A stretch of DNA of 50,324 nucleotides from a virus (Duplodnaviria; Heunggongvirae; Uroviricota; Caudoviricetes): the IMG/VR virus record IMGVR_UViG_2681813429_000008, positions 1-50,324 of that record; one strand, given 5' to 3'. Positions 1-20,728 of this stretch are shown here, in pieces (within the stretch, counting starts at the first letter, position 1; the number at the start of each line of letters is the position of its first letter). The translations under genes and the position numbers were made by a program. The notes beneath the pieces were generated by a model that had not been told where the DNA came from, ran no database searches, and saw only the letters and a list, made by a program, of their open reading frames with translations.

Positions 1-1158
1 ATGCTCACCGTTAAGCAGATTGAAGCAGCAAAGCCGAAAGAAAAACCATACCGCCTACTCGATGGTAATGGCCTGTACCTTTATGTCCCTGTGTCAGGGA
101 AAAAGGTATGGCAGCTTCGCTACAAGATTGACGGTAAGGAGAAAATCCTGACCGTAGGAAAATATCCGCTAATGACTTTGCAGGAGGCAAGAGATAAAGC
201 ATGGACCGCGAGGAAAGACATCTCGGTTGGCATCGATCCGGTAAAAGCGAAAAAGGCTTCGTCTAACAACAATTCCTTTAGTGCGATTTACAAGGAATGG
301 TACGAGCACAAGAAGCAAGTCTGGTCAGTAGGGTATGCGACTGAACTTGCAAAAATGTTTGATGACGACATTTTACCTATCATCGGCGGCCTTGAAATTC
401 AGGATATTGAGCCGATGCAACTGCTGGAAGTAATCCGCAGATTTGAAGATCGCGGTGCAATGGAGCGAGCCAACAAAGCCCGCAGAAGATGCGGCGAGGT
501 TTTCCGTTACGCTATTGTCACTGGTAGGGCTAAATATAACCCGGCACCTGACCTTGCTGACGCCATGAAGGGATACCGCAAGAAGAACTTCCCATTTTTA
601 CCTGCCGACCAGATCCCGGCATTCAACAAAGCACTTGCAACATTTTCAGGAAGTATCGTATCGCTCATTGCGACCAAAGTTTTACGCTACACAGCCCTAA
701 GAACAAAAGAGCTTCGTTCCATGCTATGGAAGAACGTCGATTTTGAAAACAGGATTATCACCATCGACGCCAGTGTGATGAAGGGACGCAAAATTCATGT
801 TGTCCCGATGTCAGACCAGGTGGTTGAACTTCTCACTACACTAAGCTCAATCACTAAACCAGTATCAGAGTTTGTTTTTTCCGGGCGCAACGATAAGAAG
901 AAGCCAATCTGCGAGAACGCGGTGCTACTTGTGATCAAACAAATCGGCTATGAAGGTCTGGAAAGCGGTCACGGATTCAGGCATGAATTCAGCACGATTA
1001 TGAACGAGCACGAATGGCCTGCCGACGCCATTGAAGTGCAACTGGCACATGTCAACGGCGGATCTGTACGTGGAATTTACAACCATGCTCAGTATCTCGA
1101 TAAGCGCAGAGAAATGATGCAATGGTGGGCGGACTGGCTTGATGAAAAGGTGGAGTGA
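1..1158 (+). CDS. int: Tyrosine integrase, P4 family (IntC-like)
   Basis: 385 aa ORF. N-terminal KPKEKPYRLLDGNGLYL arm-binding motif and C-terminal catalytic region (HGFRH ... Y) typical of P4-type integrases. Begins at window base 1, so the true start could lie just upstream. Confidence 0.9.
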   Translation: MLTVKQIEAAKPKEKPYRLLDGNGLYLYVPVSGKKVWQLRYKIDGKEKILTVGKYPLMTLQEARDKAWTARKDISVGIDPVKAKKASSNNNSFSAIYKEWYEHKKQVWSVGYATELAKMFDDDILPIIGGLEIQDIEPMQLLEVIRRFEDRGAMERANKARRRCGEVFRYAIVTGRAKYNPAPDLADAMKGYRKKNFPFLPADQIPAFNKALATFSGSIVSLIATKVLRYTALRTKELRSMLWKNVDFENRIITIDASVMKGRKIHVVPMSDQVVELLTTLSSITKPVSEFVFSGRNDKKKPICENAVLLVIKQIGYEGLESGHGFRHEFSTIMNEHEWPADAIEVQLAHVNGGSVRGIYNHAQYLDKRREMMQWWADWLDEKVE

Positions 1159-1174
1159 ACCATCTTAAAAATCA

Positions 1175-1225
1175 ATGAAAACATGCAAGGCCTGGCACTC
1201 AAGTTACAGGCCTTGCGCATACAAT
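1175..1225. terminator. Bidirectional intrinsic terminator between convergent int and tailspike genes
   Basis: Inverted repeat GCAAGGCCTG...CAGGCCTTGC (~1185-1216) flanked by A/T-rich runs on both sides, between the int stop (1158) and tailspike stop (1267). Confidence 0.6.
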
Positions 1226-1266
1226 TTATCAACTAATAATTTAATTTTTTAAAATATCAATTAATT

Positions 1267-3441
1267 CTATCTAATCCTGAACATTACAATTGGAGCAGAG
1301 CCAGAAGATAAAGGGCCTGACCAATGGTATCTAATTCTGAAAGAAGACTCACTTGGAGTTCCGATAATTTCTATTGGACTTAAAGTTGCACCTTCTGCAG
1401 AACCAGCAGGTTGTCTAAACCCCAACACAGCAATCTGGTTTGGTGTTGGGGCATACAGAAAATTATGCTCAATATCAACCTCGTTAGATTCGCTACCTGT
1501 TGGGTTTGGCATATTCCACTCAATATAATCGTCAGTTGATTTCCCATTTATTGAGTTTCCAACTGTTGCCATAATCGTCCACGTACACGTCCTGTTAAGG
1601 GCTGCCATTCTATCACCTAAAAACCTATTATAACCATTTGCGCCTGAAGTGATTAATCTTATATTCTCTGATGCACATGTGCCAATGCTGTTAAATCCAG
1701 TGCAATCAGAAGAAAGCCCCTTCGCAGTTATATCTACGCTGTTCGCAAAACAAATTGTTGTTGAATTTACTGCATCGCGAATAAGAGCAGAACCCGAAAA
1801 CAAATTATCACACGAACCTCTTATATTATTACCACCGCCGGATAAGTAACATAAATTTCCTTTTATCCTCTTGGATGTAAAAGTAACATTGTTATTGTCA
1901 CCAGTAACAGAAAGAAGCGAGGCTTTAATAGGGGCATTGTCACTCTGCAACTGACCGATTTGGTTTATTGTAACTACATTGTTGTTGCCTGATATAGCTA
2001 TCTGATACCCATCATCATCAATTGAAGGTGAATATCTTTGTGCTTTTATATTGATGTTAAGTGTCCAGATTGTACCGTTATCCAGAAGCATGTCGCGGAG
2101 AGGAGAAATTGAATCGCCAGTGTAGTTATCTGGCATTCTTCCGCACGCCCTGGCTTCTGCGATGGCAACAACACCATGTGCCCCGTTGGTAAACCAGTAA
2201 CCACCTAAACTATTGTCAACACACACGTGCCTCGCATTGAATCGGTTAACACCCAGCGTCTTAAATCCATAGCCATAATACACAGCATATACATGGATGT
2301 AATTTATATCGACATGTCCTGTATAAGGAGACTGATTATCAAGAACAATTCCATGACATGGTTCTCCGGGATAAAGAAGGCTTTGTTGGCTTGTTGCTGT
2401 TAATCTTGCGCTGTAAGGAGGAAGTCCACACAGGCCAAAAACAATATAATCTAGGTTAATATCACCTGGCCCCCTGAACACAACCCCCTCTCTCCCTGAA
2501 ATTCTTCCCGTTATCCTCACTTCAGAGGCGTGTTCCTGATTATCATGAAATGATCCATACCCCTCTGAATAGAGAGCATGTTCTGCAACATTATTAATCT
2601 CAACGTCAATGTGGTACATGCTGCCGAATATTTTAATGGCAGTTCCATAATCATTGTTAACAGTGTCGCAAGTTCTCCATGAGTTTGTATCTCTTTGCAA
2701 GTCAAGATAATTACCATCAATGGTCATATCTTTTATGCTAAATCCATATGGCGCATCAGACAGATTTTCCACAACGCCAAAGCCATGTGTTTTAAATACA
2801 TCTGTATTACTACCTTTTTTAACATACAGAAATGTTGCTCTCTTTCCAGAGCCTTTATGATGAACGCCTGTATAAAGAATGATAGGAGAATCTATTAAAT
2901 AAACACCTGGAGGGTAAAATATTTCCCCGCCACCATTATTAAAAGCAGCTAATGCTGCGGCATTAATGGCATCAGAATCTGATGTCAATCCATCTGCTTT
3001 AGCTCCATAGTATTGAGGTGTTTTCCTGATTGCATCGTAAACCGTTGAAGCGCCGAAACCGATATATTTACTACCATCTGTACCGCCAATAAGTAATTTA
3101 AACTGATCCGGGTCGTACTTCAACACATTAGGAAAATTGAACTGCTGCGCCCCATATGCATCATAAACAGCCATAGAATGGCCTTGCACAGTTACGAACT
3201 TGGCAATCTGTCCGTTATATACCGGGTAACCAGCAGCGTTAATGATGATTGGTTGAGAAACAGGAACGTGAGAGCCGTCTTCGTTCTCCACATAAACCTG
3301 AATCTGGTTTTCTGGATTTACTGGGTCAGTGTCAATTTTACCGATATAAATTTTGCCATTAGCTACGGCTTTAAAAGAGCGGGCCATAGTAAAGAGTTGC
3401 GAAGGCATGCTCACTACAACATTGGCTGTAATGTCTGTCAT
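1267..3441 (-). CDS. Tailspike protein (P22-like N-terminal head-binding domain, divergent receptor-binding beta-helix domain)
   Basis: 724 aa. First ~110 aa ([11 protein letters not shown]...[13 protein letters not shown]...TVQGHSMA) closely resemble the P22 gp9 head-binding domain. The remainder is unrelated to the P22 endorhamnosidase domain. Confidence 0.85.
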
Positions 3442-3499
3442 TTAATTTGCTCCAGATACAAGGAATGGCCGCAGCGATTCATTATTAATCAAAAAATAC

Positions 3500-3512
3500 G
3501 ACCACCGTGGTC
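3500..3512. promoter_or_regulatory. Mnt operator-like palindrome (GACCACCGTGGTC)
   Basis: Near-perfect palindrome resembling the P22 mnt operator core (CCACGGTGG) as recalled, in the 135 bp between the tailspike start and the mnt start. Confidence 0.45.
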
Positions 3513-3576
3513 TTATTGAGGATGCAACCAGCAGATAATAAGATGCCGATCCACTCACAAGAGCGAGGCATCAAGA

Positions 3577-3828
3577 ATGGGAAGAGATGACCCGCAATTT
3601 AATCTGCGGCTACCTTACGAATTAAAGGAAAAACTAAAACAGCGAGCCAAATCCAATGGCCGCTCTCTTAATTCAGAATTAGTTCAGATAGTGACTGATG
3701 CTGTATCAAGGCCATCCAAAATTTCAGGCTATCGAGACGATGCGGAACGCATCGCTGATGAGCAATCAGAGCTTGTTAAGAAGATGGTGTTTGATACGCT
3801 GAAGGATTTGTACAAAAAACCCACCTGA
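3577..3828 (+). CDS. mnt: Mnt repressor (ribbon-helix-helix, Arc/Mnt family)
   Basis: 83 aa. MGRDDPQFNLRLPYELKEKLKQRAKSNGRSLNSELVQIV... closely matches P22 Mnt including the C-terminal ...DEQSELVKKMVFDTLKDLYKK. Confidence 0.9.
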   Translation: MGRDDPQFNLRLPYELKEKLKQRAKSNGRSLNSELVQIVTDAVSRPSKISGYRDDAERIADEQSELVKKMVFDTLKDLYKKPT

Positions 3829-3846
3829 AGGTGGGTCCTATTTATT
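3814..3846. terminator. Bidirectional intrinsic terminator (CCCACC-TGAA-GGTGGG)
   Basis: Perfect 6-bp stem with 4-nt loop, A-run upstream and T-run downstream. Lies between convergent mnt and the minus-strand lipoprotein gene; the mnt stop codon sits in the loop. Confidence 0.7.
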
Positions 3847-4264
3847 AGTCTTGCTTTGTTGATGGTATAAGAGATGCGTTTGCCTCTTTTGGCTTCAAGG
3901 TATACATCCCACCATTAAATGGATCTACAGCAAGCCAACCAATTAACCCACCAAACACAAGGTTCCCACCAATATACCAACCATTAGCATTGGCTTTGAT
4001 TGGCAGGGTAACTGGTTCGTACCCATCCTTCTCCATAGTGATCTGGTAGCTCTTTTTGCCAAAATAACTACCATCTGACTTGGCAAGAGTTACTCCTTGC
4101 GGGGTCTTACCTTGCGCAACAATCACGCCTGATTCGTCTTTTACCTTAAAGCTCGCACCGGAAGGATTGCTGTTCACTTGCACAAGCTGTGTTTCGTCAC
4201 CAACAATAGTTGCGCACCCAGATAACAATATAGCGCCAGCAACGACGCCGATAATCCTCTTCAT
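3845..4264 (-). CDS. Lipoprotein, PEGA-like domain (moron)
   Basis: 139 aa. Signal peptide with lipobox LLSGC. NPSGASFKV motif resembles a PEGA domain. Sits at the sieA/immI position of P22-like genomes. Confidence 0.7.
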   Translation of the reverse strand: MKRIIGVVAGAILLSGCATIVGDETQLVQVNSNPSGASFKVKDESGVIVAQGKTPQGVTLAKSDGSYFGKKSYQITMEKDGYEPVTLPIKANANGWYIGGNLVFGGLIGWLAVDPFNGGMYTLKPKEANASLIPSTKQD

Positions 4265-4398
4265 ATTACTTTCCGTTTTGTTAGAATCAGAAAGATCTTA
4301 ATAATAAAAAGTATTTTCGTGAAGATATTGTCGATTGAGTTAATAACTCATTTACACCCAACAGTGCCATGATGGCAAAGATAAGGAGAGTTATTCAT

Positions 4399-4884
4399 AT
4401 GAAAAAATCACTGTTAATTATCCCGCTTCTGCTGGCAGGGTGTGCAAAGGTTAGCGACTATCAGGCAAGTTGCGAACAACGCTATCCAAAGCTTAGCGAT
4501 ATGGCTAATTGCCTTGATGCCAGTGTGAAGAACGACTCACGCATGGCATCAGCACCAACACCTAAGCTGTATGTCCTTGCTGCAAAGATGCTCGGGCAAA
4601 GTGTCGATGAAGGCAAGATAAGTGACGCACAGGCAAGACTTGAGCTTCAGAATCTTTATGTTCAATTACAAAGCCAAGAACAAGCCCAACAAATAGCGCA
4701 AAGCCAAGCATTCCAGCAGGCTTTATTGAATTATCAGGCTGTAAACACAATGCAAGCGATCGAGCAAAAAGCGAGACAGCCTGTTATAACTCAACCCTAT
4801 CCAACACGCGTTGACACTTACACAAACTGCAATTCAGGGTTTGGAAATACAGTCACATGCAACAGTAGCAGTAACATCAGATAA
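4399..4884 (+). CDS. Lipoprotein, Gln-rich (moron)
   Basis: Start chosen at MKKSLLIIPLLLAGC (lipobox LLAGC) preceded by AAGGAGAG. Q-rich central region. Oriented opposite to the late operon. Confidence 0.7.
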   Translation: MKKSLLIIPLLLAGCAKVSDYQASCEQRYPKLSDMANCLDASVKNDSRMASAPTPKLYVLAAKMLGQSVDEGKISDAQARLELQNLYVQLQSQEQAQQIAQSQAFQQALLNYQAVNTMQAIEQKARQPVITQPYPTRVDTYTNCNSGFGNTVTCNSSSNIR

Positions 4885-4974
4885 CAATCAGCAAAGGTAT
4901 CGCCTATGCAGAGGGATACGATAAACCTCGCGTTCTACATATTTGGTTTTTGCACTTTCCTGGTGTTTGCAAAG

Positions 4975-6972
4975 CTATTCTGACAACGCATCAGACTTAG
5001 CCCCCTGCGTCAGAGCGTTAATTGCCTTTTGTGCCTGCTGCATGGCTTTCTCAAACGCTGTTGATCCGCGTGGGGTGTTTGCCATTCGGAGCATTGCATT
5101 TCTGAATGGTTCGCTCTCATAGGCGCGAGTAAGAAGTCCGTAGCTTACTGCTGCGCCAGTTGTCGCCGGATTCATTGCCGTCCCATACCCAATAATGAAC
5201 GGGATAGTTTGCTGCCCTGTGGGTGTTGTTACTGCCGCTTTTGCAGCCTGCTGCGTGGATTGCAGATAGTTTTTTAATCCTTTCAGATAAGCAGCGTCCT
5301 GCCCCTTAAATGTGATGCCAGTCTGGTTTTGCAGGATGTTAAGCTGCCGAAGGAACTGGTCAGGGGATCCGCCAGATTTCTCCATCGCCTTTCCAATGAT
5401 GCCATTGCGCATTTGCGCCCTGCCAACACGACCAACTGAGTTATACAGCGTCTTAATTTCCGATTTGTTCTTGCTGAATAGCATGTTGTTGACAACTTCC
5501 GGCGTCAGGTCGCCTTTCATGAGAACATTCTTCAGCCTGGTATTCTTTAGTTTCGCCGCTTCGTCAGCGTAGACGGCATTGGCCTGCTGATATTTACGGA
5601 GAGTATCGTTGCCAAGATTCTGACCAATGGCACCATTGATATCGTCAGTCATTGCCTTGTAAACGCGCTGAATGGCAGCATCGGAACGGTTTGGTAACAC
5701 TGGGCGCTCACCCTTCACGTCCATTCTGAACTGGCTGCGCAGGTCGCTTAATTGCTTCAAATCCAGATTTACCGGACCATCAGGACCAGCATTGCGAACA
5801 AGCTCATCACGATATGACTGAAGTTTTGAAATTGTCTCGTTATCAGCTACCTTACCAAGCTTCTGCAGATTAGATATCTCAGTATCAATCTGCTGAATTG
5901 CTCGCGCAGGCTGAATGTTTACTCCAGCCATAGCATTCTGAACCTGCTCCAGTCGATTACCGGCGGCACGACGAATTCCTGATGTTTTCGCTTTAAGGCT
6001 GTCAATAACAACCGCTGGATCATACTCACCAAATTTATCAGCAAATCTCTGCACCAACTGGCTTCTCGCTTCCTGTTGCGTTGCTCTCATTCCGCTTGTG
6101 CCAGCCAGAGGGATATTTTCTGCTGTAGTCTGCGCCATTTTTCCGACGCGGGAAGTTGGTTGTAACAGGTCTGTGGTGTGCAGAGGAACTCCTTCACGCT
6201 CTGCAAATCTGATAGCCTGCTGCGCTTCTGGCGCAATAGAACCACGAACGCCACGATAAGCAGCACCTAATCCACGTCCGGCAGCGTTAATAGCACCGCC
6301 AGCCAGCACACCAACACCTAAATCGGTGGCGAGTGCTTCCGCATCATCTTTCGCACTATTTGCAGCAAGTGATCCAACTGCGTTTTCTGCGAGAAGGCGA
6401 GTTGCCCCCTGAGCAATTCGACCAGCAAGTGTTGGTGCCTGTGTTGCCGCTCTCTCAACGCCAGCAGGAGTGAGGTAAGGCAATGCTTCAGCAAACACCC
6501 TGCCCTCTGTCGTTTGTGGAGTCAGCGCGCCTTGCTGAAGGCCAAAGTCATGCTCTAATCCCTGCGTTGTTACTCGTGGCGCTGGTTGATATGTACCATC
6601 GCCAATGCCGAGTTTACCGCCAGCCCATGCAGCCGCACTTGTTACAGCATCGGCAACTGATGCAGGTATGTTTGCCACGTTCACGCCAGCCTGCACCAGT
6701 CCGCGACCAGTCTCTTTTACTGCTTCGCCAAGATCAGACATAAGTCCACTTTGCTGTGGTTGTTGCTGTGCTACTGGTTGCTGTGTCTCCACTTGCTGCA
6801 CAGATGGCAATGGATAGGCAGCATAGAAAGCTTGCTTAGCCTGCTCTGCATTTTCTCCGGCTTGCGGGGCCACGACTTCATTGAAGTATTGCTCCTGAGC
6901 CTGCGCTTTTTGTTCTGGTGCTAACGCCTGGTACTGTGGAGAGGCGATAACATCTTTCCATGCTTTAGCCAT
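4975..6972 (-). CDS. Ejection (injection) protein, P22 gp16-like
   Basis: 665 aa. Position and size match P22 gene 16. Last gene of the gp7-gp20-gp16 ejection protein block. Confidence 0.7.
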   Translation of the reverse strand: MAKAWKDVIASPQYQALAPEQKAQAQEQYFNEVVAPQAGENAEQAKQAFYAAYPLPSVQQVETQQPVAQQQPQQSGLMSDLGEAVKETGRGLVQAGVNVANIPASVADAVTSAAAWAGGKLGIGDGTYQPAPRVTTQGLEHDFGLQQGALTPQTTEGRVFAEALPYLTPAGVERAATQAPTLAGRIAQGATRLLAENAVGSLAANSAKDDAEALATDLGVGVLAGGAINAAGRGLGAAYRGVRGSIAPEAQQAIRFAEREGVPLHTTDLLQPTSRVGKMAQTTAENIPLAGTSGMRATQQEARSQLVQRFADKFGEYDPAVVIDSLKAKTSGIRRAAGNRLEQVQNAMAGVNIQPARAIQQIDTEISNLQKLGKVADNETISKLQSYRDELVRNAGPDGPVNLDLKQLSDLRSQFRMDVKGERPVLPNRSDAAIQRVYKAMTDDINGAIGQNLGNDTLRKYQQANAVYADEAAKLKNTRLKNVLMKGDLTPEVVNNMLFSKNKSEIKTLYNSVGRVGRAQMRNGIIGKAMEKSGGSPDQFLRQLNILQNQTGITFKGQDAAYLKGLKNYLQSTQQAAKAAVTTPTGQQTIPFIIGYGTAMNPATTGAAVSYGLLTRAYESEPFRNAMLRMANTPRGSTAFEKAMQQAQKAINALTQGAKSDALSE

Positions 6973-8267
6973 TAATCACCCCATAGTGAAGAAAAGTTAC
7001 TGCCAGTAGTAGATTGTTGCCCTGGAATATTCTGCACCGGCTCCTGATAATCAAACTGTTTTTTAACAGTGCTCAACTTGCTTTCAAGCTGATTTCTAAT
7101 CTTTCCGATAGAGTCACGAAAAGCCTTTTCACTCATTTTGGGGCTTAGGGCACCAACCGCATCGGATAATTTTTTACCCTCAGCATCTGAAAGAGCGCCC
7201 ATACCCTTCAGGGACTGCACCATAGGAAGGAATGTTTGAGCTTTAAAGGTGTCGAGCCTTGCTTCAAAGTTAGCCGCATCAGAGCCAGGAACTGTCGGAA
7301 ACGCTGAGCGAATTCCTACTGCTTTTGAAAGGCCGGGGCTTTGCTCTATCTCGTTGAGAGAATCAAGCGCGGTGCTGAACGTATCAACTGCACCCTGAGC
7401 AGCGGCCTGCCTGTCAGCGCGGGCTATGTCAGCCTTTTGCCGAACATCTGCCTGTTTCTGTTTTAGCTCTTCAAGCTTTAACTGATTGCTTTCTCTGGCT
7501 ATTTGTCTGTCCAGAGCCTTTTCTTGTAATTCTGCTCTTTGTATTTCGCGGGAAAGAGCAGCATTCTGTGCGCTGATGTTCTGTCCACGTATCTGGATGT
7601 CCTGACCTCGAGCTGTTAGTGCTTCTCCGGCCTGATTGCTGCGGATTGTCTCTGCCAGTCTGCCTCGGTCAATTTCACGACCAGCCATCTTGTCCTGAAC
7701 ATTGAAGTAATCAATCGGACCAAGCGCAGCCATCCCAAGGTGATCAACAAACTCACCAAATCCTGAAGGATTCTGCTGATACATCTGAGCAACGCTGTTA
7801 GGGTCAACACCGACGCGAGTCAGTTCCTTGGCGTTGTTTTGCAGCCATGATTGCATTGCTTCTGGAGACGATGACGCAAGGCGTGCGCCAGCCGCTAAGG
7901 TGCCGATAGAATTACGCTGGTCTTCATCAATGAATCCCATGCCTTTACGAACGGATTCAATCTGGTCTGGATATTGAGTAGCCAACTGACGCAAAGCACC
8001 GCGATCACCAGACGCATAAGCATTAGCGTACGCCTGCTGGAATTCTTTCTTCCGCTGAGCCTGCTTCTCCTGCTGAAACACCCCCGCAATACCTGAAATG
8101 CCTTGCAAAGCAGTCAGCCCAACATTGTTAGCGCCTGAACGCTCAATATCATTGTTCTGCCTGATAAGCTGAAGCGTATTGCCGATGTCATTTACGCTCG
8201 GAGCGTTTGAGTTGACGCCGCCGATACCAGCCAACAATCCGCCATTTGATCCTTGCCAAGTAGCCAT
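6972..8267 (-). CDS. Ejection protein, P22 gp20-like
   Basis: 431 aa. Synteny with P22 gene 20, coiled-coil central region. Confidence 0.7.
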   Translation of the reverse strand: MATWQGSNGGLLAGIGGVNSNAPSVNDIGNTLQLIRQNNDIERSGANNVGLTALQGISGIAGVFQQEKQAQRKKEFQQAYANAYASGDRGALRQLATQYPDQIESVRKGMGFIDEDQRNSIGTLAAGARLASSSPEAMQSWLQNNAKELTRVGVDPNSVAQMYQQNPSGFGEFVDHLGMAALGPIDYFNVQDKMAGREIDRGRLAETIRSNQAGEALTARGQDIQIRGQNISAQNAALSREIQRAELQEKALDRQIARESNQLKLEELKQKQADVRQKADIARADRQAAAQGAVDTFSTALDSLNEIEQSPGLSKAVGIRSAFPTVPGSDAANFEARLDTFKAQTFLPMVQSLKGMGALSDAEGKKLSDAVGALSPKMSEKAFRDSIGKIRNQLESKLSTVKKQFDYQEPVQNIPGQQSTTGSNFSSLWGD

Positions 8268-8276
8268 GATTACCCC

Positions 8277-8972
8277 TTAAAACAACGATCCAAGCAGGCC
8301 AAGTCCGCCGCCAATTGCCGCACCTAATCCAGTACCAAGTCCTGGAACAATAGAGCCAAGAGCAGCGCCAGTCATAGCTCCTGAAGCTCCGCCACTAATT
8401 GCTGTCTGAAGGCCTGATGGTTTGTTGGCGTTAGCAGCGGCAAGAGTTGCGCTTTGCTGCGCAATGCTGCTCATGTTGTTGGCGTATGTCTGCCCGGCGT
8501 TCGCCTGACCTTGCAGCGCACCAAGGCCAATGTTTGCCAGATTGTTGTAGTTGCTCATCTGGTTCGACAACCACGACTGACCGAGAGTCGGGGCAATCGT
8601 GGCCAGTTGATTGCTTGTGGCTGTCGAGCCAAGTCCTCCCGTCGCCTCCGCAGCAGCAAGACTCTGGTAACGCGCCTGACCTGCAAGGTCTTTATACTGC
8701 TGAGAGTTGTAATACTGATTAAGTGCCTGCCCCTGTCCTTCTAAACTGGAAAGATTCTGAAGCTGGTTAACATACTGCTCCGCAAGCGGCGTGAACGGAG
8801 CAAGGTTTTTCATGATCGTCTGCCACTGTTGATTTTGCAGGTCTGCGGCATACTTCTGAGCTTCTGCGGCATACTTTGCACTTTTATCAGAACTGCCACC
8901 TTTCCCGCCTTTTTCAGGGCAATAAGGTTCCTCGCCGCGCAGTTTTCTGCCCAGCTTAAATGCATATAACAT
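8277..8972 (-). CDS. Ejection protein, P22 gp7-like
   Basis: 231 aa. N-terminus MLYAFKLGRKLRGEEPYCPEKGGKGG resembles P22 gp7. Gly/Ala-rich C-terminus. Confidence 0.75.
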   Translation of the reverse strand: MLYAFKLGRKLRGEEPYCPEKGGKGGSSDKSAKYAAEAQKYAADLQNQQWQTIMKNLAPFTPLAEQYVNQLQNLSSLEGQGQALNQYYNSQQYKDLAGQARYQSLAAAEATGGLGSTATSNQLATIAPTLGQSWLSNQMSNYNNLANIGLGALQGQANAGQTYANNMSSIAQQSATLAAANANKPSGLQTAISGGASGAMTGAALGSIVPGLGTGLGAAIGGGLGLLGSLF

Positions 8973-20290: not shown

Positions 20291-20728
20291 TTATTTCAGG
20301 CACTGAGTCCTGATGTACTCCTGCAGGTAGTTAACCTGCGCGGTTATCTTGTCGATTCCACTTCGGAGACGGTAATAATTGAGTTCAGCATCTGCTGTAA
20401 GTCTTGGGATTTCTCCATCGCCCATGCTGCTGGCTCCGGTCGTTGACTTTGCACAGGTGGCGGCGACTTGCAGGCGCTTACGCCCAGCAGAAACATCAGC
20501 ACGGAGGCTTTCGATAGTCGCGTTAGCATCAGCAAGCTCCTTTGTGTATCTGGCGTCAAGTTCTGCTACATCACGTTGACGCTTCTGCATGTCAGCGATG
20601 ATGGATGTGGCTTTGTCGCGCTGGGCTTTGTAGGCGATGGCGTTATCCCGGTAATGATTAACAGCCCATGACAGACAGACGATGATGCAGATAACCAGAG
20701 CGGAGATAATCGCGGTGACTCTGCTCAT
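20291..20728 (-). CDS. Rz: i-spanin Rz
   Basis: 145 aa, N-terminal transmembrane segment then coiled coil, downstream of the endolysin gene. Confidence 0.85.
20344..20529 (-). CDS. Rz1: o-spanin Rz1 (embedded in Rz, +1 frame)
   Basis: Embedded ORF with lipobox (LLGVSAC) and Pro-rich region ([13 protein letters not shown]). Start chosen at internal Met. Confidence 0.7.

What the first reader, a model, noticed from the sequence alone, without database searches (positions are those of the whole stretch)
3845..4884. Two convergent lipoprotein morons at the sieA position
Between the ejection-protein operon and mnt are two lipoprotein genes with clear lipoboxes (LLSGC and LLAGC). One is PEGA-like and one Gln-rich, and one is oriented against the late operon. 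Prophage lipoproteins at this locus are typically superinfection-exclusion or receptor-blocking factors expressed in the lysogen.
Basis: partly seen in the sequence, partly recalled or inferred. Interest (0 to 1): 0.5.

Follow-up and report, generated by a model that had tools for sequence, protein, structure and literature searches.

The report
Two prophage lipoprotein morons, function untested
A P22-like E. coli prophage carries two small, separately mobile lipoprotein genes between its DNA-ejection genes and its tailspike; a near-identical prophage expresses them during lysogeny, one sits exactly where P22 keeps its exclusion gene sieA, and what they do has never been tested.

Summary
Both genes are real. 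Gene A (3845-4264, minus strand, 139 aa) has lipobox LLSGC. Gene B has lipobox LLAGC and most likely starts at 4399, not 4369 (161 aa, plus strand). They are divergent, not convergent.

The window is a P22-like prophage about 98% identical here to phage Gally of E. coli LF82. In published LF82 RNA-seq these two genes rank second and third after the c2 repressor. The adjacent ejection gene stays at background.

A is a textbook moron. It has a conserved promoter, a beta-sandwich plus a glycine-rich hydrophobic hairpin, and an intrinsic terminator. It recurs in at least four tail-gene slots of unrelated prophages, including the HK97 gene-15 slot.

B is found only in P22-like prophages. It always converges on gene 16, in the slot and orientation of sieA. 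No P22-type or HS1-type SieA was found in any sampled locus.

B has no sequence similarity to SieA, and neither gene matches Cor or any PADLOC family. Superinfection exclusion is therefore supported only by gene position. An envelope or host-fitness role is nearly as likely.

Verdict: uncharacterised members of a known kind, in the known "ant moron" region. Moderate interest.

The parts
3819..3836 (.). Bidirectional hairpin terminator shared by gene A and mnt. On the minus strand it reads GACCCACC-UUCA-GGUGGGU followed by UUUUUUG.
   Evidence: Scan. RNA fold -14.5 kcal/mol, z -2.2 on the minus strand. A homologs in three other phage contexts also have an intrinsic terminator directly after the stop codon.
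3845..4264 (-). Gene A: 139-aa lipoprotein precursor. Lipobox LLSG|C17, Ala at +2. Beta-sandwich at residues 25-93, a conserved Gly-rich hydrophobic hairpin at about 95-120, and a final strand returning to the sandwich. Equals Gally GALLYPH_14, epsilon34 gp15 and phrog_6823.
   Evidence: dN/dS 0.046 against epsilon34.
4295..4323 (-). Predicted promoter of gene A: -35 TTCACG (4323-4318), 17-nt spacer, -10 TAAGAT (4300-4295). Inferred transcription start near 4288. Ribosome-binding site GGAAAG at 4274-4269.
   Evidence: The same -35 / 17 nt / TA(A/G)GAT arrangement and a conserved 5' UTR are found upstream of A in otherwise unrelated flanks. Transcription is independent of the late operon in LF82. 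No transcription start has been mapped.
4265..4398 (.). 134-bp AT-rich (31% GC) divergent control region between A and B. B's promoter must lie here but is not pinned down. Candidates are TTGTTA-16-AATAAT at 4278-4305 and TTCATA-16-TAGAAT at 4260-4287.
   Evidence: The number of consensus matches does not exceed chance (3 found against 2.9 expected). The region is 133/134 identical to LF82, where B is expressed.
4399..4884 (+). Gene B: 161-aa lipoprotein precursor (the ORF opens at 4369). Lipobox LLAG|C15, Ala at +2. Helical N-domain with conserved Cys25/Cys38, a Gln-rich helix of about 50 residues, and a C-terminal hairpin TNCxxxGNxxxC carrying a second Cys pair. Equals Gally GALLYPH_13, VSe13_014 and phrog_6067. 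It occupies the sieA slot.
   Evidence: dN/dS 0.037 against VSe13. No terminator is detected between B and gene 16.
3837..4374 (.). Extent of the exchangeable A cassette in this arrangement. Related prophages with mnt-orf59a-B have a different block of about 660 bp between these same end points.
   Evidence: Homology break-points from blastn of 160 related loci.
3577..3828 (+). Context: mnt repressor gene (Arc and Repressor_Mnt domains). It is an orphan here, with no arc or ant.
4975..6972 (-). Context: gene 16-type ejection protein, the last gene of the ejection-protein cluster. It converges on B with a 90-bp gap.
   Evidence: Its neighbours are gp20 (Inj_translocase) and gp7.

Best explanation
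These are two separate lysogenic-conversion (moron) cassettes. Each encodes a Sec/SPase II-exported lipoprotein that the E. coli +2 rule (Ala, not Asp) sends to the inner leaflet of the outer membrane.

Shown:
- Both proteins are under strong purifying selection.
- Both are swapped in and out independently among P22-like prophages.
- A prophage with a virtually identical control region transcribes both from their own promoters during lysogeny.

Inferred for B:
- B is the alternative occupant of the sieA slot and is confined to P22-like phages.
- It most likely does SieA's job from the other side of the periplasm.
- Anchored under the outer membrane, with a disulfide-stabilised head, a helix of about 50 residues and a disulfide hairpin, it would interfere with assembly or function of the gp7/gp20/gp16 ejection-protein conduit of incoming P22-like phages. 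DNA would then not enter.

Inferred for A:
- A is a portable promoter-gene-terminator unit that hops between tail-gene slots of unrelated phages.
- It most likely alters the outer membrane itself. Its conserved glycine-rich hydrophobic hairpin dips into the leaflet next to the lipid anchor.
- That would give the lysogen a general envelope-level protection. Exclusion at the entry step is one candidate effect.
For: Lipoprotein features:
- Lipobox and invariant Cys.
- Conserved extra Cys pairs in B imply an oxidising compartment.

Expression (LF82 Gally RNA-seq, Misson et al. 2023, PMC9928086, S1/S4 tables; values are log2 fpkm):
- A is 9.8-11.0 and B is 7.9-10.3 in DMEM and in macrophages.
- c2 is 8.9-12.0 across all five conditions; adjacent gene 16 is 3.6-4.2.
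- In LB overnight culture A and B are 3.3x and 4.5x the prophage median.
- The control region is 133/134 identical to the window.

Gene B position:
- B lies immediately beside and convergent with gene 16 in 76 of 80 IMG/VR loci; in the other four no gene-16 match was scored, and gp20 is the next match in three of them. It pairs with three different gene-16 sequence types.
- The same holds in Serratia, Morganella and a further genome.
- P22 sieA and HS1 sieA have the same slot and orientation.
- Neither SieA type occurs in any of 160 A/B loci or in the window.

Gene A portability:
- A has a conserved promoter and terminator in four phage contexts.
- A 68%-identical homolog sits between the tail chaperone and tape-measure genes of HK97-like prophages. 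That is the slot of the HK97 gp15 exclusion moron (PMC3594210).
- Other homologs lie upstream of the tape-measure gene in Proteus prophages and between the lambda I and J homologs.

Selection and other systems:
- dN/dS is 0.04-0.05 for both genes.
- The prophage has no SieA match. There is no room for gtrABC between int and the tailspike.
Against: - There is no functional test anywhere for either family.
- There is no homology to any known exclusion or defence protein and no fold match for B.
- B's model is only moderately confident: pLDDT 64 overall, about 80-86 in the N-domain.
- Position in a moron hot-spot is weak evidence. The same slot also holds unrelated cassettes of unknown function.
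- Very low dN/dS and near-identical alleles across many prophages are not the signature of an arms-race gene.
- Induction in DMEM and macrophages fits a host-adaptation role at least as well.
- Distant relatives of both proteins sit in ordinary chromosomal contexts.
- Outer-membrane sorting and SPase II processing are predicted, not shown.
- A's hydrophobic segment is below the usual transmembrane threshold (15-residue windows average at most 1.2 on the Kyte-Doolittle scale; about 1.1 over 19 residues by hand).
Confidence: 0.4

Rival explanations
1. Host-fitness lysogenic conversion with no effect on phages. One or both lipoproteins strengthen or remodel the envelope under host-associated stress, in the manner of lambda Bor or Lom or the chromosomal glycine-zipper lipoprotein SlyB. 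They would benefit the lysogen in the gut or in macrophages.
For: - In LF82 both genes are induced in DMEM and inside macrophages relative to stationary LB: log2FC 3.84 for A and 2.55 for B, q below 1e-26.
- A is not tied to any phage type. It recurs in podophage and siphophage prophages and has chromosomal relatives.
- Distant B relatives lie among housekeeping genes (a second case in Pectobacterium).
- Strong purifying selection and near-identical alleles suit a housekeeping-like envelope role.
- A CRISPRi preprint reports that Gally is beneficial in the healthy mouse gut, but this was not mapped to these genes.
Against: - B is confined to P22-like prophages at one slot, across genera and down to about 50-60% identity. 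That is hard to explain if its function has nothing to do with P22-type biology.
- The slots used by A and B are those of two proven DNA-entry blockers.
- The SlyB and Bor resemblance is recalled from memory. It is not supported by any profile hit.
Confidence: 0.3
2. The active product of the B unit is RNA. B's transcript has no terminator and runs antisense into the 3' end of gene 16. It would silence the late transcript of an incoming or resident phage, as the antisense RNA STnc6030 does at the same locus of the P22-like prophage BTP1. Alternatively it tunes read-through into the tailspike gene.
For: - STnc6030 lies antisense to the injection-protein and tailspike genes of BTP1 and excludes BTP1 when expressed alone (PMC7067206).
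- No terminator-like structure is found in the 90 bp between B and gene 16: z -0.3 and -0.5.
- The P22 ant moron is known to modulate late transcription into the tailspike gene (PMC2629481).
Against: - B is a conserved protein: dN/dS 0.037, invariant lipobox Cys and four further conserved Cys.
- Homology between B loci stops exactly at B's stop codon when the gene-16 type changes. B also pairs with three unrelated gene-16 types. No antisense target is therefore conserved.
- Gene-16 read counts stay at background in LF82 when B is high.
Confidence: 0.07
3. The genes serve the phage's own lytic cycle, for example as lysis or spanin-like accessories or in virion or injection assembly, rather than the lysogen.
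For: - A is co-oriented with the late operon and would also be transcribed by anti-terminated late transcription.
- Outer-membrane lipoproteins do act in lysis. An Rz1-like ORF exists elsewhere in the window.
Against: - Both are dispensable: most P22-like phages lack one or both. Only 3 phages in the phage-genome collection carry A and 5 carry B, and the cassettes are swapped freely.
- B is antisense to the late operon.
- Both are expressed while late genes are silent.
- The prophage already has its own Rz1-like gene.
Confidence: 0.05

Closest known systems
P22 SieA (types A, B and C), the superinfection-exclusion protein of P22-like prophages
   Same: - Gene B has the same slot and orientation: immediately downstream of and convergent with gene 16, antisense to the late operon.
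- Similar size: 161 aa against 164-212 aa.
- Both are expressed from the prophage.
- SieA and B were never found together in the 160 loci sampled.
   Different: - No sequence similarity.
- SieA is a polytopic inner-membrane protein with the cytoplasmic motif FxRYPxEAxxFNK (PMC10883804).
- B is a lipoprotein with no transmembrane helix and lacks that motif.
- If B excludes phages, it must act from the outer-membrane or periplasmic side.
HK97 gp15, the first described moron: an inner-membrane exclusion protein of the YebO family
   Same: - A 68%-identical homolog of gene A occupies the gp15 slot, between the tail-assembly chaperone and tape-measure genes, in HK97-like E. coli prophages.
- Both are promoter-gene-terminator cassettes with bacterial chromosomal relatives.
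   Different: - No homology.
- gp15 is a small inner-membrane protein.
- A is a 139-aa lipoprotein with a beta-sandwich.
- A also occurs in other slots and in podophages.
Cor (phi80, N15, HK022) and T5 Llp: phage outer-membrane lipoproteins that inactivate the receptor FhuA
   Same: Both are small phage-encoded lipoproteins predicted to reach the outer membrane, and Cor is expressed from the prophage.
   Different: - The only matches to Cor cover the signal peptide: PHROG residues 1-20, and NCBIfam 11.7 bits against a 31-bit cut-off.
- P22-like phages adsorb through O-antigen, not FhuA (my own knowledge).
- No receptor target can be proposed from the sequence.
Ltp of Streptococcus phage TP-J34: an exclusion lipoprotein that targets the tape-measure protein
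   Same: It is the closest precedent for the mechanism proposed for B. A prophage lipoprotein outside the cytoplasmic membrane blocks DNA injection by binding the incoming phage's channel-forming protein (cited in PMC10883804).
   Different: - Gram-positive host and a different fold.
- No homology was tested or expected.
- Its target is a siphophage tape measure, not podophage ejection proteins.
The 'ant moron' / immI region of P22-like phages (Villafane et al. 2008)
   Same: - The window's 3442-4974 interval is this region: the only moron site in the P22-like morphogenetic cluster, with ten gene sets in sixteen genomes.
- epsilon34 gene 15 is gene A at 97.8% identity.
   Different: - That paper listed gene 15 only as matching bacterial genes of unknown function.
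- Gene B was not among the cassettes described there.
- This window has mnt but no arc, ant or sar.
Pfam PEGA domain (PF08308) / carboxypeptidase-regulatory, transthyretin-like beta-sandwiches
   Same: - Gene A residues 25-93 fold as this kind of sandwich (pLDDT above 90).
- UniRef and PGAP label some homologs this way.
   Different: - The sequence score is below Pfam's threshold. Only 5 of 46 homologs reach E below 0.01.
- The most conserved part of the family is not the sandwich. It is the Gly-rich hairpin NGWYIGGN..FGG.IGW..VDPFNGGMY.
- That hairpin is shared only weakly with NCBIfam LEPBI_I2678.
BTP1 STnc6030 antisense RNA
   Same: It has the same locus in a P22-like prophage, is transcribed against the late operon, is highly expressed in the lysogen, and excludes its own phage type.
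   Different: It is non-coding, with no ORF above 60 aa. B is a conserved protein whose homology ends at its stop codon.

Membership tests
Bacterial lipoprotein (PROSITE PS51257-type signal) | N-terminal basic residues, a hydrophobic stretch, and a lipobox [LVI][ASTVI][GAS]C within the first 35 residues | tested here: met
   A: K2, R3 ... LLSG-C17. B: K2, K3 ... LLAG-C15. These are the only such ORFs in the window apart from an Rz1-like ORF. The Cys is invariant in both family alignments.
Bacterial lipoprotein (PROSITE PS51257-type signal) | Lgt acylation and signal peptidase II cleavage (globomycin-sensitive), plus sorting by Lol | not testable with these tools
   Outer-membrane sorting is inferred only from Ala at +2 under the E. 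coli rule. SignalP and LipoP were not available.
Phage moron (Juhala/Hendrix definition) | Present in some and absent from other, otherwise syntenic, related phages | tested here: met
   A is present in about 17 of 80 B loci and B in about 17 of 80 A loci. Break-points are sharp at 3836/3837, 4308, 4375-4398 and 4883/4884.
Phage moron (Juhala/Hendrix definition) | Own promoter, expressed from the repressed prophage | tested here: met
   In LF82 Gally, A and B are 3-5x the prophage median in LB and roughly 16- to 128-fold above adjacent gene 16 in DMEM and macrophages (log2 differences of about 4 to 7). This is published RNA-seq on a control region 133/134 identical to the window. A's -35/-10 is conserved across contexts. 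B's promoter is not located, and the consensus scan does not exceed chance.
Phage moron (Juhala/Hendrix definition) | Own terminator | tested here: inconclusive
   A: yes, a canonical hairpin plus U-run, also present in three other contexts. B: none detected before gene 16.
Phage moron (Juhala/Hendrix definition) | Base composition different from the surrounding genes | tested here: inconclusive
   A is 45% GC, B 44% and the spacer 31%. Gene 16 is 51% and the window 47%. The difference is modest.
SieA family | Sequence homology, several transmembrane helices, and the motif FxRYPxEAxxFNK | tested here: not met
   BLASTP of B against P22 SieA finds nothing at E up to 100. The motif is present in P22 and HS1 SieA and absent from B's sequence as read. 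B has no hydrophobic segment after its signal peptide.
SieA family | Position between gene 16 and gene 9, convergent with gene 16 | tested here: met
   This holds for B only. It is a positional feature, not evidence of homology.
Pfam PEGA (PF08308) | Score at or above the gathering threshold of 20.8 bits | tested here: not met
   17.6 bits, E 0.0037. Only 5 of 46 homologs reach E below 0.01. The fold is compatible.
Cor exclusion lipoprotein (NF047972) | Score at or above 31 bits over the mature protein | tested here: not met
   11.7 bits, covering residues 1-30 only, which is the signal peptide.
Known anti-phage defence proteins (PADLOC-DB 2.0) | Any profile match | tested here: not met
   No family matches at E up to 1 for A or B.
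Superinfection-exclusion protein (functional class) | Expression in a naive host blocks infection at or before DNA entry | not testable with these tools
   No experiment exists for either family in the literature searched.

The most novel reading that the evidence does not exclude
B is a previously unrecognised class of exclusion protein. It would be an outer-membrane-anchored periplasmic lipoprotein that replaces SieA and stops P22-type podophages by blocking assembly of the ejection-protein conduit from the outer-membrane side. A is a promiscuous glycine-zipper lipoprotein moron switched on in host-like conditions. It would harden the outer membrane of pathogenic E. coli such as AIEC LF82 and, in doing so, also limit phage entry.
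Probability: 0.2. Interest if true: 0.6.

Novelty: new member of a known kind. Interest (0 to 1): 0.38.

Why it matters
Only about a third of sequenced P22-like phages carry sieA (22 of 66, PMC10883804). What fills the slot in the others is unknown.

- **Gene B.** It is a conserved alternative occupant of that slot, present in 186 of 5426 complete E. coli genomes, and it is easy to test. If it excludes phages, it would be the first lipoprotein shown to block DNA delivery by a short-tailed phage. It would also be a new handle on how the gp7/gp20/gp16 conduit crosses the periplasm.
- **Gene A.** It is a compact example of a promoter-gene-terminator cassette that has spread among unrelated prophages (124 of 5426 E. 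coli genomes for this allele class).
- **Published record.** Both genes are among the most highly transcribed genes of the Gally prophage in the Crohn's-associated strain LF82 inside macrophages. The published analysis nevertheless concluded that Gally has no morons, because both fell just under a 5-fold cut-off in LB.

If neither gene has a phenotype, the finding is an ordinary pair of hypothetical prophage genes.

Tried and rejected
- **Sequence families.** Pfam, NCBIfam, PHROGs and PADLOC gave only two PHROGs of unknown function, a sub-threshold PEGA hit, and signal-peptide-only or low-complexity matches. The low-complexity case is T2SS GspK on B's Gln-rich helix, which explains a 'GspK' mis-annotation of a Cronobacter homolog.
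- **Solved structures.** Profile searches of both families against PDB sequences found nothing meaningful.
- **Rfam.** Nothing was found in 3300-5200, and there is no sar-like RNA.
- **Promoter scan.** The consensus scan of the spacer did not exceed chance. It missed A's promoter, which only the comparison across contexts revealed.
- **B as a SieA homolog.** Rejected.
- **Linkage of B to one gene-16 type.** Rejected: B pairs with three types.
- **A's Gly-rich segment as a classical transmembrane helix.** Considered unlikely because its hydropathy is sub-threshold.
- **PhoP box in the spacer.** Looked for by eye and not convincing, so not pursued.
- **Literature.** Searches for any functional study of either family found none. 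The LF82 CRISPRi preprint reports Gally effects but none mapped to these genes.
Full report
**What is there**

The window begins with an integrase (1-1158, plus) and a tailspike gene (1267-3441, minus). Next come mnt (3577-3828, plus) and the two ORFs of the finding. After them lie the ejection-protein genes 16 (4975-6972), 20 (6972-8267) and 7 (8277-8972), all on the minus strand. The 1.5 kb around the finding is 98.1% identical to Escherichia phage Gally, the P22-like (Lederbergvirus) prophage of the adherent-invasive E. coli LF82. It is up to 98.5% identical to prophages in other E. coli genomes.

- Gene A (3845-4264, minus, 139 aa) begins MKRIIGVVAGAILLSG-C.
- Gene B is listed as 4369-4884. 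The ATG at 4399 follows an AGGAG ribosome-binding site and gives the 161-aa protein that RefSeq, the PHROG profile and every homolog agree on. That protein begins MKKSLLIIPLLLAG-C.

Both match the lipoprotein signal rule, and both have Ala after the Cys. Under the E. coli sorting rule (established knowledge) that predicts transfer to the outer membrane. A six-frame scan of all 50 kb finds this pattern only in A, B and an Rz1-like 61-aa ORF, so two adjacent hits are not chance. The acceptor Cys is invariant in 46 and 45 homologs respectively.

The genes are divergent: their starts face each other across 134 bp of 31% GC DNA. Each converges on its outer neighbour instead.

**They are real protein genes**

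- For A against epsilon34 gp15, dN/dS is 0.046 (dS 0.20).
- For B against Salmonella phage VSe13, dN/dS is 0.037 (dS 0.51).
- At larger distances dS saturates while the proteins stay 50-80% identical.

**Gene A protein**

- Pfam PEGA is hit only below threshold, at 17.6 against 20.8 bits, and by only 5 of 46 homologs. 'PEGA-like' is therefore a fold label, not a family assignment.
- The best-conserved part of the family is a glycine-rich, moderately hydrophobic stretch, NGWYIGGN-FGG-IGW-VDPFNGGMY (residues 94-121), with many invariant positions.
- The model shows this stretch as a low-confidence helical hairpin looped out between sandwich strands. The chain then returns to the sandwich with high confidence.
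- Its hydropathy is below the usual transmembrane threshold. I read it as a membrane-dipping or oligomerising glycine zipper. That reading is inference. The resemblance to SlyB-type lipoproteins comes from memory and is not backed by any profile hit.

**Gene B protein**

- The mature protein has a helical head (pLDDT about 80-86) with conserved Cys25 and Cys38.
- It continues with a helix of about 50 residues, one third Gln.
- It ends in a beta-hairpin, T-N-C-x3-G-N-x3-C, with a second conserved Cys pair.
- Four conserved Cys in an exported protein argue for a periplasmic, disulfide-bonded fold.
- A profile search of 1.8 billion representative proteins finds 240 relatives. They are mostly 125-140-aa lipoproteins that share the head and often the hairpin. 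None has a Pfam or NCBIfam family.
- No solved structure resembles it.

**Expression**

Misson et al. (PLoS Pathog 2023, PMC9928086) re-analysed strand-specific RNA-seq of LF82. In their tables GALLYPH_14 is gene A (100% identical protein) and GALLYPH_13 is gene B (98%). Values are log2(fpkm+5).

| Condition | A | B |
|---|---|---|
| LB overnight | 6.2 / 4.8 | 6.3 / 6.0 |
| DMEM, 1 h and 6 h | 9.8-10.5 | 7.9-8.2 |
| Macrophage, 1 h | 11.0 | 10.3 |
| Macrophage, 6 h | 9.4-9.5 | 8.5-8.7 |

- The c2 repressor is 8.9-12.0 across these conditions. The adjacent gene 16 is 3.6-4.2 throughout.
- The two genes are therefore the second and third most transcribed genes of the prophage. Their transcription is independent of the late operon.
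- The authors wrote that Gally is devoid of morons. The reason is that in LB the two genes reach 4.5x and 3.3x the prophage median, against a chosen cut-off of 5x.
- The 134-bp control region of LF82 differs from the window at one base, so the result transfers.

**Modular anatomy**

I compared 160 related IMG/VR loci by tblastn and blastn.

- B lies directly beside and convergent with gene 16 in 76 of 80 loci. In the other four no gene-16 match was scored, and gp20 is the next match in three of them. Three unrelated gene-16 sequence types occur. When the type changes, homology stops exactly at B's stop codon.
- The same arrangement holds for 83%, 60% and 53% identical homologs in Serratia, Morganella and another genome.
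- A is present in about a fifth of B loci and B in about a fifth of A loci.
- A is always co-oriented with the late operon, between gene 16 (or B, or an hkcB-like gene) and mnt, ant or the tailspike.
- The block 3837-4374 is exchanged for an orf59a block in mnt-orf59a-B prophages.
- The slot next to gene 16 can instead hold an hkcB-like coiled-coil gene, a 122-aa ORF, or nothing. The two alternative genes are likewise antisense to the late operon.
- This region is the 'ant moron' of Villafane et al. 2008. They listed epsilon34 gene 15 (A) only as matching bacterial genes of unknown function.

**A travels as a complete cassette**

More distant A homologs sit in quite different prophages:

- Between the tail chaperone (G/T) and tape-measure genes of HK97-like E. 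coli prophages, for example in strain ED1a (68% identity).
- Upstream of the tape-measure gene in Proteus prophages.
- Between the lambda I and J homologs in Pseudescherichia and others.
- In a plain chromosomal context for a longer relative.

Several of these contexts keep a similar upstream element: -35 TTCAC(A/G) or TTGAAC, 17 nt, -10 TA(A/G)GAT, and a conserved short leader. I could not identify a -35 with correct spacing in the Proteus locus, and the HK97-like (ED1a) upstream region shows no evident match to the motif. Each of the four contexts examined has an intrinsic terminator within a few bases of the stop codon. In the window the elements are at 4323-4318, 4300-4295 and 3819-3836.

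B has a conserved 40-nt upstream piece in most contexts. The window (and LF82) carries a variant of it. No terminator follows B.

**Relation to known exclusion genes**

- In P22 the order is 9, ant, arc (one direction), then mnt, orf59a, sieA (the other direction), then gene 16 converging on sieA. B therefore has sieA's exact slot and orientation.
- I identified the type-B sieA of E. coli HS prophage HS1 in the same slot. It is 212 aa and carries the motif FNRYPGEARKFNK.
- Neither SieA type occurs in the window or in any of the 160 loci.
- B has no detectable similarity to SieA. SieA is a polytopic inner-membrane protein thought to disturb the gp20/gp16 conduit. Only 22 of 66 sequenced P22-like phages have it (PMC10883804).
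- The chaperone/tape-measure slot used by an A homolog is the slot of HK97 gene 15. That gene was the first moron described and is an inner-membrane blocker of DNA entry (PMC3594210).
- Each lipoprotein family therefore appears somewhere in the place of a proven DNA-entry blocker. This is suggestive, but it is evidence from position only.
- Matches to Cor cover the signal peptide only, and PADLOC has nothing.

**Most likely mechanism and its rivals**

I commit to the following at 0.4 confidence overall. The anatomical and expression parts stand at about 0.9 and the exclusion mechanism at about 0.3.

- Both genes are lysogenic-conversion lipoproteins of the outer-membrane inner leaflet.
- B substitutes for SieA by interfering, from the periplasmic side, with the ejection-protein conduit of incoming P22-like phages.
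- A changes the outer membrane itself through its glycine-rich hairpin and gives a broader, envelope-level protection.

The main rival (0.3) is a role in host fitness only. It is favoured by four observations:
- induction in DMEM and macrophages;
- A's indifference to phage type;
- chromosomal relatives of both families;
- very strong purifying selection, with near-identical alleles across many prophages.

An RNA-based role for B's unterminated antisense transcript is modelled on BTP1's STnc6030 at the same locus. It is unlikely (0.07), because the protein is conserved and no antisense target is conserved. A role in the phage's own lytic cycle is unlikely (0.05), given dispensability, orientation and expression.

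**Prevalence, novelty and verdict**

- Among 5426 complete E. coli genomes, A (this allele class) is in 124 and B in 186. The two together, as in the window, are in 25.
- Among the phage-genome records searched, A is in 3 phages and B in 5.
- Both genes are annotated 'hypothetical' nearly everywhere. I found no functional study of either.
- The locus, the concept and the gene class are known. The two families are uncharacterised members.
- I rate the finding a new member of a known kind with moderate interest (0.38). It is not surprising to a specialist. It is cheap to test, and it touches an open question: what replaces SieA in the majority of P22-like phages.

Noticed in passing
window 3845-4884; LF82 Gally GALLYPH_13/14: [quoted passage not shown] In the paper's own S1 table the two lipoprotein genes are 4.5x and 3.3x the prophage median in LB, against a cut-off of 5x. 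In DMEM and macrophages they are roughly 16- to 128-fold above the neighbouring late gene, second only to c2.
   Followed up: yes
window 3577-3828 and 3442-3576: mnt is an orphan: there is no arc, ant or sar next to it, so it has nothing obvious to repress. In LF82 it is induced about 40-fold in macrophages, together with the tailspike gene and GALLYPH_17, and deleting it had no phenotype (PMC9928086). Transcription leaving the A promoter and reading through the hairpin into the tailspike gene could explain the co-induction. This was not examined.
   Followed up: partly
window 1-3441: The integrase gene abuts the tailspike gene, leaving no room for a gtrABC O-antigen conversion cluster, and no SieA of type A or B is encoded anywhere in the window. 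Two of P22's four exclusion systems are therefore missing. sieB was not checked.
   Followed up: partly
window 20344-20529 (minus): A 61-aa [28 protein letters not shown], is the only other lipobox ORF in the window. It looks like the Rz1 o-spanin of the lysis cassette.
   Followed up: no
L104, L113, L118 and others (IMG/VR), between gene 16 and gene A; L002:3654-3977: The slot next to gene 16 also holds other small genes antisense to the late operon. One is a 122-aa ORF, MFLFISFGATAECWVVGDMRG..., with a possible signal peptide. Another is the hkcB-like 107-aa protein, with an N-terminal hydrophobic segment and then coiled coil. Neither is characterised.
   Followed up: partly
L007, L005-L009 (E. 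coli ED1a and others) 6001-6414; L184-L186 6001-6414; L010-L013 6001-6411: Homologs of gene A sit in classic moron slots of siphophage prophages: the HK97 gene-15 slot between the chaperone and tape-measure genes, the lambda I/J junction, and upstream of the Proteus tape-measure gene. In several ED1a-type loci a porin gene (Porin_1) is inserted a few genes further on, between the tail M and L homologs.
   Followed up: partly
P0143 (Cronobacter dublinensis homolog of B); window 4399-4884, residues 74-124: One B homolog is annotated 'general secretion pathway protein GspK'. This appears to come from a weak low-complexity match of the Gln-rich helix to NCBIfam T2SS_GspK (E 0.001, 18.7 against 130 bits). 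It is a mis-annotation.
   Followed up: yes
L022:6208-6633; L189:6001-6411: Distant relatives of B occur in non-phage chromosomal neighbourhoods: uvrC/EarP/biotin genes in one, dsbB/minCDE in Pectobacterium. In the Pectobacterium locus and in the Morganella prophage loci a DNA_pol3_theta (HolE-like) gene lies nearby. I have no explanation for that recurrence.
   Followed up: no
window 4975-6972: This gene-16 type has no Pfam hit at all. Even so, PGAP labels close copies 'lytic transglycosylase domain-containing protein' in several genomes, and a more distant gene-16 homolog next to a B homolog (L190) does carry an SLT domain. I did not examine whether B could act on such a muralytic domain.
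   Followed up: no
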